From an uncultured Methanosarcinales archaeon (GTDB lineage Archaea > Nanobdellota > Nanobdellia > Woesearchaeales > JAGVZT01), in the NCBI GenBank assembly GCA_964419615.1, contig CAYQPU010000043.1, positions 1 through 10,046 on the forward strand: 10,046 nucleotides of DNA, given 5' to 3'. A program made the translations under genes and the position numbers. Positions 79 through 7,467 of this stretch are shown here, one piece after another. Numbering within the stretch: the stretch's first letter is position 1; each line of letters starts with the position of its first letter. Below the pieces are notes generated by a model, which worked only from the letters and a program-made list of their open reading frames with translations, searched no databases and was not told the origin of the DNA.

Positions 79-582
79 CTATCCCTTGATTTTTCTAGCC
101 AGTTCAGCTAATTTCTCTTGATCAGCTGGTTTACTATCATTTGATGCAATAAATCCTTCATATTTTTCAAAGTATCTATTGAAATGCTCTGATTTTACAG
201 GTTTCCACTCTGCTACATCTTCTGTTCCATGCATTGGGAATAGTTTTAGATGTAAGTGATTTACACCCATTCCTTCAAAGATTATTCCTGTTCTTCCAAC
301 ATCTTCTAACTTTTTATTAAGTAAAGAACACACTTTTCTTGCTGCTAAGAATATTCCTGTTGCAACCTCGTCTGAGACTTCTAAAATATCACTTGAATAA
401 TGTTCTTTTGTGACTATAACTGTAAATGCTTCTGTATTTGGAAATATTGAAAGAATTGCAATATGTTTTTCATCTTCCCAGATCTTATGACAAGGAATTT
501 CTCCCTCAATAATTTTACAGAATATGCAATCTTTGATTGCATGCTCAGAAATCTTTGTTTTCTGTTGGATACAGTTTTCCAT
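79..582 (-). CDS. HIT (histidine triad) family nucleotide hydrolase
   Basis: N-terminal DCIFCKII (CxxC) and EIPCHKIWED pattern; FPNTEAFTVIVTKEH segment; triad region VNHLHLKLFPMH. Start supported by GGTGATC 4 nt upstream. Confidence 0.92.
   Translation of the reverse strand: MENCIQQKTKISEHAIKDCIFCKIIEGEIPCHKIWEDEKHIAILSIFPNTEAFTVIVTKEHYSSDILEVSDEVATGIFLAARKVCSLLNKKLEDVGRTGIIFEGMGVNHLHLKLFPMHGTEDVAEWKPVKSEHFNRYFEKYEGFIASNDSKPADQEKLAELARKIKG
523..567. repeat. 45-bp twin-hairpin palindromic element, apparently inserted in frame in the HIT gene
   Basis: ATGCAATC-TTT-GATTGCAT (524-542, 8/8 bp) and CAGAAATC-TTT-GTTTTCTG (546-564, 7/8 bp) share an AATCTTTG core at a 22-nt period. Together they encode the extra QQKTKISEHAIKDCI between MENCI and FCKII. 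Confidence 0.6.
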
Positions 583-584
583 TT

Positions 585-591
585 GATCACC
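585..591 (-). promoter_or_regulatory. Shine-Dalgarno site for the HIT gene, overlapping the HAD stop codon
   Basis: Minus strand GGTGATC-AA-ATG is complementary to the 16S 3' tail GAUCACC; the TGA inside it is the HAD stop, suggesting translational coupling. Confidence 0.7.
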
Positions 592-1231
592 CCAAGAATT
601 TATTTAGTTCATTTAAGTTTAATATTCTGTCTTCAAAGTTTTTCCTTCGATCATTCCTATCTATTAAAACAGGTTTTATGCCAGCGTTTCTTGCGCCAGC
701 TATGTCTGATTCTATGCTATCTCCAACCATTATTACATCTTCTTTTTTTAATTTTAATTCATTAATGGCAAAGTCAAACATTTCTGGGTTTGATTTTAGC
801 ATTCCTTTTTCACAGGATAATAAAATTAAGTCAAAGCAATTTTTCATTTCATACTTTTCCATGACTGATTGCACTGAGAAGCTGTCTGTGTTAGATATAA
901 GTACAATTTTGTAATCTTTTTTTAGGTTTTCTAGAACTTCTAATGTTTCTGCAAATGGTTTTGCCAACAGTTTATTTTTGTTCCACATGCCAACTAATCC
1001 ATCTAGCATGCTTTTTGTAGGTGTGATTTTAAATTCCTTACAGACATTTTCAAAAGCCTTGTATAAATCTTCAAAATCCTTTGTCATAAAAGATTTTTCA
1101 AATCTTACTATGTATTCTGGAAATGGTAATTTGTATAGTTGTAACAGATTTTTTGCCTGCCTTACTGGACTTGGAAATACTCCATTCTCAACTAAAGTAC
1201 CCCAAAAATCAAAAAATATTGCTTTTACCAT
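587..1231 (-). CDS. HAD-superfamily hydrolase, subfamily IA (phosphatase/nucleotidase-like)
   Basis: Motif I KAIFFDFWGTL, motif II LISNTDS, motif III KSNPEMF, motif IV MVGDSIESDIAGARNAG. ATG at 1231 preferred; the ORF-track start at 1237 is a TTG. Confidence 0.92.
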   Translation of the reverse strand: MVKAIFFDFWGTLVENGVFPSPVRQAKNLLQLYKLPFPEYIVRFEKSFMTKDFEDLYKAFENVCKEFKITPTKSMLDGLVGMWNKNKLLAKPFAETLEVLENLKKDYKIVLISNTDSFSVQSVMEKYEMKNCFDLILLSCEKGMLKSNPEMFDFAINELKLKKEDVIMVGDSIESDIAGARNAGIKPVLIDRNDRRKNFEDRILNLNELNKFLG

Positions 1232-1258
1232 CCCCAAATATAAAGTTAAAACGAGTGA

Positions 1259-7273: not shown

Positions 7274-7467
7274 TGGACAGGCCGGGACTTTCAAAATCTT
7301 TTAACAGCTTGGGTGGTGATTATCTAGTTTTCAAGCACATCACCGCATGGGACTGCAAGTCCCATTACTTTTGGTGCAACTTTTGCAACAAAGCTGGAAA
7401 AGGTGCATTTGAACCCGGGGCCTATCGCCAGCCAGACGATCGTTCTACCGAGCTGAACTACCTGCCC
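7274..7467 (-). tRNA. trnA: tRNA-Ala(GGC) with a 120-nt intron at position 59/60; exons 7467-7408 and 7287-7274; CCA not encoded
   Basis: Acceptor GGGCAGG/CCTGTCC with G3-U70 (Ala identity) and A73; D arm GTTC/GAAC; anticodon arm ATCGT-CTGGCTG-GCGAT; variable AGGCC; T stem CCGGG/CCCGG with loop TTCAAA^T. Spliced length 74 nt. Confidence 0.9.
7288..7407 (-). other. Archaeal tRNA intron at non-canonical T-loop position, with BHB-type splice motif
   Basis: Central 4-bp helix TTCA/TGAA flanked by 3-nt bulges AA^T and AG^T. Intron ends pair (CTTTT/AAAAG, CAGCTT/AAGCTG); the helix next to the first bulge is weak (relaxed BHB). Confidence 0.82.

What the first reader, a model, noticed from the sequence alone, without database searches (positions are those of the whole stretch)
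523..567. Twin-hairpin palindromic DNA element inserted in frame in the HIT gene
Seen: HIT proteins usually begin M-x-x-C-I-F-C, but this one reads MENCI-QQKTKISEHAIKDCI-FCKII. The 15 extra codons (523-567) span exactly two adjacent hairpins with the same TTT loop: ATGCAATC/GATTGCAT and CAGAAATC/GTTTTCTG, sharing AATCTTTG at a 22-nt period. The CI dipeptide is duplicated at the borders (TGTAT...TGCAT), like an imperfect target duplication. The strong SD before ATG 582 indicates the insert is translated. Known: Rickettsia RPEs and Methanocaldococcus MJREs are palindromic elements that insert in frame into genes. Inference: this is one copy of a dispersed coding-compatible palindrome family. I have an unverified recollection of 'KISEHAQK'-like peptides in unrelated DPANN proteins; the + strand here reads HAQKS.
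Basis: partly seen in the sequence, partly recalled or inferred. Interest (0 to 1): 0.8.

Follow-up and report, generated by a model that had tools for sequence, protein, structure and literature searches.

The report
In-frame twin-hairpin insert in HIT gene
A 45-base stretch that folds into two hairpins sits in frame at the start of a small enzyme gene of a tiny DPANN archaeon, and its first hairpin belongs to a family of mini-palindromes scattered through archaeal genomes, much like the bacterial REP and Rickettsia palindromic elements.

Summary
Window 523-567 is 15 extra codons in the HIT gene (79-582, minus strand). They form two adjacent hairpins with 8-bp stems and 3-nt loops, bordered by TGTAT/TGCAT.

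The closest orthologues, including the same-genus one at the syntenic locus, have a clean empty site (M-x-D-C-I-F-C). At least 16 other HIT genes of the same order carry the same insert at the same codon.

- The insert is always in frame (45, 51 or 99 nt).
- It always lies behind a Shine-Dalgarno (SD) sequence and ATG.
- Insert-bearing genes are scattered over the HIT tree.

Hairpin 2 is kept by Watson-Crick compensatory changes. These couple the wobble base of the host Cys codon to an Ala/Thr codon, so selection acts on the nucleic acid, not the peptide.

Hairpin 1 (CAGAAATC-N3-GATTTCTG) is the signature of a dispersed, almost purely archaeal hairpin family found in Woese-/Nanoarchaeota, Methanosarcinales and Halobacteria, at 1-19 copies per genome. 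Copies lie in multi-hairpin arrays, in tRNA introns, and in frame inside unrelated protein genes such as MetRS and TnpB.

Two caveats apply: the complete two-hairpin unit occurs only in HIT genes, and the mobilising enzyme (an IS200-type Y1 transposase is my guess) is unproven.

The parts
79..582 (-). HIT-family gene (167 aa) that hosts the insert
   Evidence: ORF and translation. Pfam HIT domain 32.4 bits against a cutoff of 21.5. Orthologues found in 41 of 41 related genomes.
585..593 (-). SD sequence GGGGTGATC before ATG 580-582; it contains the TGA stop (587-589) of the upstream gene 587-1237
   Evidence: Sequence. An SD plus ATG 2-4 codons before the first Cys recurs in most other insert-bearing HIT genes. 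This places the insert inside the translated region.
523..567 (-). The 45-nt (15-codon) insert relative to orthologues; it encodes QQKTKISEHAIKDCI
   Evidence: Closest orthologues read M-x-D-C-I-F-C with no gap-filling sequence. The same insert sits at the same codon in 16 HIT genes.
546..564 (-). Hairpin 1. Sense strand: CAGAAAAC-AAA-GATTTCTG, with 7 of 8 positions paired. This is the family signature module.
   Evidence: Nearly invariant in HIT inserts (mean pairwise identity 92%). The same stem is dispersed through archaeal genomes.
524..542 (-). Hairpin 2. Sense strand: ATGCAATC-AAA-GATTGCAT, with 8 of 8 paired. Its 3' arm is made of the host codons Asp-Cys-Ile(2 nt).
   Evidence: Five of its 8 pairs show changes on both sides across 13 sequences, with no one-sided changes and 98% of cells paired. 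The Cys wobble base covaries with the Ala/Thr codon.
569..573 (-). 5' border repeat TGTAT (codons Cys4-Ile5)
   Evidence: Sequence. In other copies the repeat extends to GAY-TGY-ATA. Its wobble base does not covary with hairpin 2, which serves as an internal control.
524..528 (-). 3' border repeat TGCAT (codons Cys19-Ile20); also the end of the hairpin 2 3' arm

Best explanation
The 45 nt are a miniature palindromic insertion of the REP/RPE kind. It entered the HIT gene at the DNA level, between the Cys-Ile codons and the Phe codon of the conserved M-x-D-C-I-F-C start, and it is translated as 15 extra N-terminal residues.

Shown:
- It is an insertion relative to the nearest orthologues.
- It stays in frame and lies behind the SD sequence and ATG.
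- Its two stems are maintained by strict Watson-Crick complementarity rather than by peptide conservation.
- Its presence is highly homoplastic on the HIT tree.
- Hairpin 1 (CAGAAATC-N3-GATTTCTG-AG) is the shared module of a low-copy, archaeal-specific family of hairpin elements. These occur in arrays, in tRNA introns and in frame in unrelated proteins.

Inferred:
- The family moves or is copied as folded single-stranded DNA hairpins, most plausibly through an IS200/IS605-type Y1 (HUH) transposase acting in trans. Excision would be precise and insertion would occur next to a short target (TGYAT).
- The element's 3' arm (GMTTGYAT) mimics the HIT target GAY-TGY-AT. This would explain both the apparent CI duplication and the repeated use of this one site.
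- The peptide itself is a tolerated, probably disordered extension.
For: Empty site:
- Closest orthologues L007-L011 lack the insert. The same-genus L007 shares the upstream gene end.

Same insert elsewhere:
- Found in at least 10 of 401 genomes of the order, plus metagenome contigs: 16 distinct HIT genes in all.
- Lengths are 45, 51 and 99 nt, all multiples of 3, with no stop codons.

Covariation:
- 98.1% of cells paired.
- 6 pairs changed on both sides, 0 one-sided (no G.U).
- 0 of 500 shuffles reached the observed values; slid controls paired in 16-46% of cells.

Internal control:
- The 3' Cys wobble base pairs with R of RCA in 12 of 13 sequences.
- The 5' Cys wobble base shows no such coupling.
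- One His to Tyr change (L037) keeps the pairing.

HIT tree:
- 13 state changes, equal to the shuffled expectation, with at least 5 forced by well-supported branches.
- The window gene is nested, at 98% SH-aLRT support, among four insert-less genes.

Family:
- 109 of 120 genome hits are archaeal.
- 19, 9, 6, 6 and 1 sites per genome against 0 for the control.
- Copies in tRNA introns, in BIME-like arrays, and in frame in the MetRS linker, with an empty site in an 86%-identical orthologue.
- Inside TnpB between its domains.
- Own-genome relatives at C1:20299, C2:20400/20462, C12:79, C21:21707 and C37:10539.

Transposase:
- An IS200-type Y1 transposase is present in the genome.
- In the Halorutilales genome with 19 copies, the Y1 gene is followed directly by a six-hairpin array of the family type.

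Structure prediction:
- AlphaFold gives residues 1-17 a pLDDT below 50.
Against: - The complete twin unit, and hairpin 2, were found only in HIT genes. What is dispersed is the hairpin 1 module, not this 45-mer.
- This genome holds no second exact copy of hairpin 1.
- The hairpins flanking the genome's own IS200 copy are of a different type.
- No RAYT-type enzyme and no TnpB are present, so no enzyme is tied to the family.
- Cys4, His14 and the reading frame are conserved. A protein-level role would also produce this.
- Hairpin 1 is more conserved (92%) than the flanking coding sequence (76%). This fits in-place functional constraint as well as it fits recent spread.
- The HIT tree is short (134 columns) and poorly resolved in places. 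One old gain followed by many precise losses through the border repeats is not excluded.
Confidence: 0.68

Rival explanations
1. Exapted or dedicated cis-acting structure. The two hairpins at +19 to +59 of the coding region are kept in place by selection, because a trans-acting factor that recognises hairpin 1 (on DNA or mRNA) controls HIT expression or mRNA stability. On this view the dispersed copies are other binding sites of the same factor, not transposed copies.
For: - Hairpin 1 is almost invariant in sequence, while hairpin 2 only keeps its pairing.
- The stem sequence is conserved across archaeal phyla, even in G+C-rich haloarchaea. This suggests recognition by a conserved factor.
- Many in-ORF copies lie within the first ~30 codons or upstream regions of genes: GyrA, RadA, acetyl-CoA synthetase, and a pilin-like protein.
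Against: - Copies also lie in tRNA introns, in long multi-hairpin arrays with many different stems, and in internal protein linkers. A regulon of operator sites would not look like this.
- Presence in HIT genes is scattered and rare (about 2-3% of genomes of the order), and sister genes lack it.
- No candidate factor is known.
Confidence: 0.2
2. Protein-level feature. The extension supplies Cys4 and His14, which together with Cys19 and Cys22 (C-x9-H-x4-C-x2-C) form an extra zinc knuckle on the HIT fold. The palindromy would be incidental.
For: Cys4 is invariant and His14 nearly invariant in 14 aligned proteins. The frame is always preserved.
Against: - Codon usage inside the stems is frozen (CAG, AAA, ATT, TCT) or changes only in compensating pairs that alter the amino acids: Ile-Asp to Ser-Ala, and Ala to Thr coupled to a synonymous Cys change.
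- One copy has Tyr in place of His while keeping the base pair.
- The TGT...CAT flanks are part of the family consensus in non-coding copies too.
- AlphaFold gives no confident fold for residues 1-17, though the alignment was shallow.
Confidence: 0.06
3. Protein-spliced (bulge-helix-bulge) intron in an mRNA. The insert would be a relative of the folded introns that fill this genome's tRNA genes, removed from the HIT transcript by the splicing endonuclease.
For: The hairpin 1 module occurs inside tRNA introns (own genome C21:21707). Earlier scan notes describe spreading structured introns in this genome.
Against: - A search for a 4-bp central helix flanked by 3-nt bulges found no candidate in the window. 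No position that would remove the 45 nt is conserved among eight copies.
- All three length classes are multiples of 3 and free of stops, which an always-spliced intron would not need.
Confidence: 0.04

Closest known systems
Rickettsia palindromic elements (RPEs; as reviewed in PMC10969869 and PMC3733652)
   Same: Palindromic repeats inserted in frame into unrelated, often essential genes without breaking them. They add a short peptide at permissive sites such as termini and linkers. The mobilising enzyme is unknown.
   Different: RPEs are bacterial, about 100-150 bp, and confined to Rickettsia. Here the unit is 45 nt, built from hairpin modules with 8-bp stems and 3-nt loops. One module is shared across archaeal phyla, and the same site in one gene is occupied recurrently.
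Bacterial REP/BIME elements, including intragenic GTAG- and CGTC-tagged REPs (Di Nocera et al. 2013, PMC3733652)
   Same: - Palindromes of 20-40 nt, single, paired or in arrays with alternating linkers.
- Some lie inside ORFs, often near the N-terminus, with dimers encoding 20-30 residues.
- The haloarchaeal copies carry GACG (CGTC on the other strand) 2 nt from the stem.
   Different: - That survey reports no archaeal case.
- Copy numbers here are low (1-19 per genome).
- The DPANN and HIT copies lack a GTAG or CGTC tag.
- No RAYT-type transposase was found; only IS200-type Y1 enzymes are present.
- The stems within one array differ from one another.
MJRE palindromic repeats of Methanocaldococcus jannaschii
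   Same: Archaeal palindromic repeats, a few of which lie within coding regions without destroying them.
   Different: They are described for a single species. No sequence relation was tested here. I did not see the CAGAAATC module among Methanococcales hits in the first 120 loci.
PATEs, the protein-free derivatives of IS200/IS605 elements (Haloquadratum, PMC3119063; listed)
   Same: Hairpin-bearing, gene-less elements in archaea, presumed to be moved by a Y1 transposase. Insertion makes no real target duplication and excision is precise. A Y1 gene is present in this genome, and in a copy-rich haloarchaeon one sits next to a family-type array.
   Different: PATEs are hundreds of bases long and share their ends with a full IS. 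Here the unit is 45 nt, and the hairpins flanking the genome's own IS200 are unrelated.
Transposed bulge-helix-bulge tRNA introns (Thermoproteales; Fujishima et al. 2010, as cited in earlier scan notes)
   Same: Hairpin-rich inserts that recur in many RNA genes of one genome. The hairpin 1 module is found in tRNA introns.
   Different: The HIT insert has no BHB motif and is read as protein.

Membership tests
REP/BIME with RAYT | Short imperfect palindromes present in many copies per genome, singly, paired or in arrays | tested here: inconclusive
   Arrays and pairs exist, but copy numbers are low. Counts are 19, 9, 6, 6 and 1 sites in five genomes. The window's genome has about 8 sites within 2 mismatches, against about 1 expected.
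REP/BIME with RAYT | Conserved GTAG or CGTC tetranucleotide tag at the foot of the stem | tested here: not met
   The window copy and the DPANN copies are flanked by CAA/TGT and AGCAT, not by GTAG or CGTC. Only the haloarchaeal copies have GACG next to the stem.
REP/BIME with RAYT | A REP-associated tyrosine transposase (RAYT) gene in the genome, flanked by the repeats | tested here: not met
   The Y1 proteins of G000, G402 and G404 score as IS200/IS605 transposase (NF033573: 120, 151 and 83 bits). They fall below the cutoff of the REP_Tyr_transpos model (30 and 26 bits against 80).
Rickettsia palindromic elements | Palindromic repeat inserted in frame in unrelated protein genes, with orthologues showing the empty site | tested here: met
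   HIT. MetRS linker: 33-nt insertion against an 86%-identical orthologue. TnpB: between its HTH and OrfB domains.
Rickettsia palindromic elements | Sequence membership in the RPE-1 to RPE-8 families of Rickettsia (100-150 bp) | tested here: not met
   The unit is 45 nt, and 109 of 120 hits for the module are archaeal. There is resemblance of behaviour only.
IS200/IS605-derived miniature element (PATE) | Y1 (HUH) transposase encoded in the same genome | tested here: met
   PF01797 match at C57:1018-1368 (2.5e-33) and a partial copy at the end of C2. IS200-type by NCBIfam.
IS200/IS605-derived miniature element (PATE) | Ends (hairpins) shared with a full-length IS of the genome | tested here: not met
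   The hairpins flanking the C57 IS200 copy have different stems. No TnpB is present. In G402, a family-type six-hairpin array abuts the Y1 gene, which is suggestive only.
IS200/IS605-derived miniature element (PATE) | Insertion 3' of a fixed tetra- or pentanucleotide without target duplication; precise excision | tested here: inconclusive
   TGYAT precedes the insert and also ends it, and empty sites are clean. This fits, but the same pattern would arise from a 5-9-nt duplication.
Bulge-helix-bulge intron | Two 3-nt bulges separated by a 4-bp helix at the two borders | tested here: not met
   No candidate in the window, and no conserved candidate removing 45 nt in eight copies.
HIT superfamily (host gene) | HIT domain and histidine triad H-x-H-x-H | tested here: inconclusive
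   The Pfam HIT domain scores above its cutoff. The window protein reads H-L-H-L-K at the triad, so the third His is replaced by Lys. H109 and H111 are invariant in the alignment.

The most novel reading that the evidence does not exclude
The twin hairpin is a site-specific, homing-like mini-element. A hairpin-recognising enzyme or factor shared by DPANN archaea, Methanosarcinales and Halobacteria repeatedly inserts and precisely excises a 45-nt unit at the Cys-Ile codons of HIT genes, guided by the element's mimicry of its target. Hairpin 1 would be the recognition module of a pan-archaeal system, still unidentified, that also seeds tRNA introns and protein linkers.
Probability: 0.25. Interest if true: 0.8.

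Novelty: new variant of a known kind. Interest (0 to 1): 0.62.

Why it matters
In-frame palindromic 'selfish' inserts are textbook for Rickettsia and are known for bacterial REPs. I found no paper describing an archaeal family built from modules with 8-bp stems and 3-nt loops and shared across phyla.

This case adds three things:
- A conserved stem sequence that links DPANN, methanogen-related and halophilic archaea.
- A single gene site that is gained or lost again and again, which gives a natural experiment for working out how such elements move.
- A clean internal control showing that selection acts on DNA or RNA pairing inside a translated region.

Practical consequences:
- Such inserts add low-complexity peptides to annotated proteins.
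- They hide tRNA genes from standard finders.
- They can mislead orthology and start-codon calls in DPANN genomes.

Tried and rejected
- Rfam: no family at gathering score in the window or in 12 loci holding copies, other than tRNA.
- BHB intron: motif search negative.
- Zinc knuckle: the AlphaFold model of the extension has low confidence and codon-level evidence argues against a peptide constraint. No fold search was made, because the model of residues 1-17 is unusable.
- TnpB/omega-RNA origin: no OrfB_IS605 in the genome.
- RAYT: none.
- Own IS200 as the source: its flanking hairpins differ.
- Viral vector: 0 viral contigs hold the hairpin with its AGCAY tail. The 32 bare-hairpin hits have no neighbouring hairpins or family flanks and are near chance level.
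- Alternative long-range stem (5' TGYAT with ATRCA): no covariation.
- Hairpin 2 outside HIT: none in the genome or in about 150 loci.
- Metagenome scan for the HIT-type insert: only 8 contigs, so the covariation sample stayed small at 13 equal-length sequences.
- Literature searches by sequence and by peptide motif returned only irrelevant hits.
- ARAGORN without intron mode missed the intron-bearing tRNAs. With introns allowed it found them.

Full report
**The observation**

The window carries a 167-codon HIT gene on the minus strand (79-582). It has a Pfam HIT domain. Its start reads M-E-N-C-I, then 15 extra residues, then F-C-K-I-I.

On the plus strand, ATGCAATC/TTT/GATTGCAT (524-542) is a perfect hairpin with an 8-bp stem. 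CAGAAATC/TTT/GTTTTCTG (546-564) pairs at 7 of 8 positions. The two share an 11-mer at a 22-nt period. As single-stranded DNA, the region folds into exactly these two hairpins (z = -3.0, 0 of 200 shuffles as good).

The SD sequence GGGGTGATC lies directly before ATG 580-582 and overlaps the stop codon of the upstream gene.

One hairpin of this size is not rare here: 89 perfect hairpins with 8-bp stems and 3-nt loops, against 31-53 in shuffles. The weight of the finding therefore rests on the comparative data below.

**It is an insertion**

A six-frame search of 40 relatives found a HIT gene in every genome. The closest genes are 56-66% identical: G001 (same genus), G002, G004, G017 and G021. 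All begin M-x-D-C-I-F-C with nothing between Ile and Phe.

The same-genus locus shares the end of the upstream gene, so it is the orthologous site, and it is empty.

**The same insert recurs in distant HIT genes**

HIT genes only 36-38% identical to the window's carry the same extension at the same codon (G023, G014, G029). A pattern scan of 401 genomes of the order found it in 9, always in HIT and always single. G029 has a 99-nt version that the pattern missed.

One more came from a Woesearchaeota genome (L088). A metagenome scan added eight contigs. This gives 16 distinct HIT genes.

- Lengths are 45, 51 and 99 nt, all multiples of three and without stops.
- An ATG with an SD-like motif lies 2-4 codons before the first Cys in most copies.
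- I conclude that the insert is translated.

**What is conserved is base pairing**

I counted pairs on 13 equal-length copies (alignment A1).

| Measure | Result |
|---|---|
| Cells forming a standard pair | 98.1% |
| Pairs with a change on both sides | 6 of 16 (5 of the 8 in hairpin 2) |
| Pairs changed on one side only | 0 (no G.U wobble) |
| Shuffles reaching the observed covariation | 0 of 500 |
| Cells paired when partners are slid 1-3 columns | 16-46% |

The changes alter the peptide. AATC/GATT becomes AAGC/GCTT, which turns Ile-Asp into Ser-Ala. GCA...TGC becomes ACA...TGT, which couples an Ala/Thr replacement to a synonymous change in the essential Cys codon.

There is an internal control. 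The TGY of the 3' Cys codon matches the R of RCA in 12 of 13 sequences. The TGY of the 5' Cys codon could pair with the same ATRCA but shows no coupling (4 C-G, 3 T-G, 3 C-A, 2 T-A, and one copy with C instead of R).

- One copy has Tyr instead of His yet keeps the pair.
- One copy extends hairpin 2 to an 11-bp perfect stem.
- Another copy nests two further perfect hairpins inside the loop of hairpin 1.

The absence of wobble pairs, although the sample is small, leans towards DNA-level pairing or at least strict helix geometry. Hairpin 1 is nearly invariant. Mean pairwise identity is 92% for hairpin 1, 81% for hairpin 2, 76% for the conserved coding flank and 55% upstream.

**Distribution on the HIT tree**

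I built a maximum-likelihood tree of 40 HIT proteins, cut so that the insert columns were excluded. Three rows were left out: L008, whose frame is interrupted; L013, which is partial and from an unpublished genome; and exact duplicates.

- The tree needs 13 changes of state, as many as shuffled labels need (12.8).
- Well-supported branches alone force at least 5 changes.
- The window's gene sits with 98% SH-aLRT support in a group of five, of which four lack the insert.
- Three other sister pairs or trios also differ in state.

The insert has therefore been gained or lost many times. The data do not separate two readings: repeated site-specific gain, or one old gain followed by many precise losses. 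Precise loss would be easy between the 5-9-nt border repeats. Within the window's own clade, a gain is the more parsimonious reading.

**Hairpin 1 belongs to a dispersed archaeal family**

| Group | Loci |
|---|---|
| Archaea, total | 109 |
| Halobacteria | 44 |
| Woese-/Nanoarchaeota | 38 |
| Methanosarcinales | 14 |
| Bacteria | 11 |

The bacterial hits are isolated and lack family flanks. Five source genomes hold 19, 9, 6, 6 and 1 sites. The reversed control pattern gives none.

Copy contexts vary:
- In DPANN and Methanosarcinales the usual form is ATGT, hairpin 1, AGCAYRC, then a second hairpin of the TCAGAAAC type.
- In haloarchaea hairpin 1 is paired with a CACGAGAGC-type hairpin and flanked by GACG.
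- In a Halorutilales genome it lies in arrays of up to seven or more hairpins with different stems and alternating linkers, like bacterial BIMEs.

Copies lie inside tRNA introns and in frame in real proteins.
- In methionyl-tRNA synthetase, the copy sits between the anticodon-binding and tRNA-binding domains. An 86%-identical orthologue lacks exactly 33 nt there.
- In TnpB, the copy sits between the HTH and OrfB domains.
- Further ORFs holding the hairpin encode Fic, prismane, methyltransferase and RadA-like proteins.
- Cases near N-termini (GyrA, RadA, acetyl-CoA synthetase) may in truth lie upstream of the real start. PMC3733652 warns of the same for bacterial REPs.

The MetRS example, two intron-bearing tRNA-like copies (L056) and the count of 6 rest on a genome flagged as unpublished under handle G403. 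Nothing else in the argument depends on it. The other flagged genome, G006, contributed only a partial, insert-less HIT that was left out of the tree.

**The window's own genome**

The exact 15-mer is unique. Diverged relatives exist:
- Two GC-rich intergenic hairpin blocks at C1:20299 and C2:20400/20462. One of these keeps the identical AGCATGC linker.
- A tRNA-intron copy at C21:21707.
- Twin hairpins at C12:79 and C37:10539.

Earlier notes of this scan are AI notes, used as leads only. They describe these blocks as mobile hairpin-module insertions. They also describe RPE-like in-frame double hairpins in other Woesearchaeota. My results agree with that picture and add the cross-phylum module and the recurrent HIT site.

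**How it may move**

The genome encodes an IS200/IS605-type Y1 transposase (C57; NCBIfam NF033573). It has no TnpB and no RAYT-type enzyme. The hairpins flanking that IS are of another type.

In the Halorutilales genome with 19 copies, the single Y1 gene is followed at once by a six-hairpin array of the family type.

The HIT insert is preceded by TGYAT and ends in TGYAT, and empty sites are seamless. This is what a peel-and-paste HUH mechanism would give: insertion 3' of a short target, no duplication, precise excision. The same pattern would also arise from a short target duplication. I rate HUH mobilisation at about one in three.

Hairpin 2 was never seen outside HIT. Either it evolved in place, or the HIT-specific element mimics its target.

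**Rivals**

- A BHB intron is unlikely: there is no motif and the frame is kept.
- A zinc knuckle is unlikely on codon evidence, and AlphaFold gives no confident fold for residues 1-17.
- A cis-regulatory role for hairpin 1 cannot be excluded, and it may coexist with a selfish origin.

**Comparison with known systems**

In behaviour this is closest to Rickettsia RPEs and to intragenic bacterial REPs (PMC3733652, PMC10969869). It fails the membership tests for REP/RAYT (no tag in the DPANN form, no RAYT), for RPE families (no homology, different size) and for PATEs (ends not shared with an IS).

I found no publication describing this family. The library does not hold subscription journals, so this absence is weak evidence.

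I file it as a new variant of a known kind.

Noticed in passing
window 7347-7390: A different twin hairpin (ATGGGACT-gca-AGTCCCAT, then a TTTTGG linker, then GCAAC-type). It belongs to a second family, AAGGGACT..AGTCCCTT plus GACCTTTT..AAAAGGTC at a 30-nt period, with at least 10 copies in the genome (C3, C5, C8, C12, C13, C20, C22, C26). The flank ends in a T-arm-like GAACCCGGGG, so this is probably an intron-bearing tRNA gene that ARAGORN and Rfam miss.
   Followed up: partly
G000 C1:20180-20420 and C2:20300-20640 (loci L169, L168): Two intergenic, GC-enriched multi-hairpin blocks closed by an AAAATCTGC...GCAGATTTT stem. The C2 copy carries four extra hairpins, including ACATGT-CAGAAACC-aaaa-GTTTCTG-AGCATGC. 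No Rfam family matches. Earlier scan notes call them mobile hairpin-module insertions.
   Followed up: partly
G000 C37:10539-10582 and C12:60-115: Twin hairpins of the same style as the HIT insert (AGGAAATC-ctt-GATTTCCT plus CAGAAAAAC-ttt-GTTTTTCTG). They lie in non-coding, stem-enclosed contexts.
   Followed up: partly
L200 (Halorutilales archaeon Cl-col2-1, G402 C1:979038-979700): The only IS200-type Y1 transposase gene of a genome with 19 hairpin 1 copies is followed directly by six tandem hairpins with 7-9-bp stems of the family type. This is a REPtron-like arrangement worth a proper look.
   Followed up: partly
window 79-582 (protein residues 108-116): The HIT protein reads N-H-L-H-L-K-L-F-P at the histidine triad, so the third His is Lys. 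The insert-bearing relatives mostly have H-x-H-x-H. The window's subfamily also has the unusual H-K-I-W-E-D-E motif.
   Followed up: no
window 585-593: The stop codon TGA of the upstream gene (587-1237, minus strand) lies inside the SD sequence GGTGATC of the HIT gene. The two genes are therefore translationally close-coupled.
   Followed up: no
L074, L087, L102 (uncultured Methanosarcinales): Here the twin hairpins are enclosed by a further 8-9-bp inverted repeat (CCCACAGAT...ATCTGTGGG). This gives a cloverleaf-like element of about 75 nt.
   Followed up: no
L215, L219, L226, L230, L242 (IMG/VR contigs): Several viral contigs share a different context for the same 19-mer (TTTAARTAGTT..ACTT before, TGT/TAT after). 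This may be a phage-specific small RNA or terminator and is unrelated to the archaeal family.
   Followed up: no
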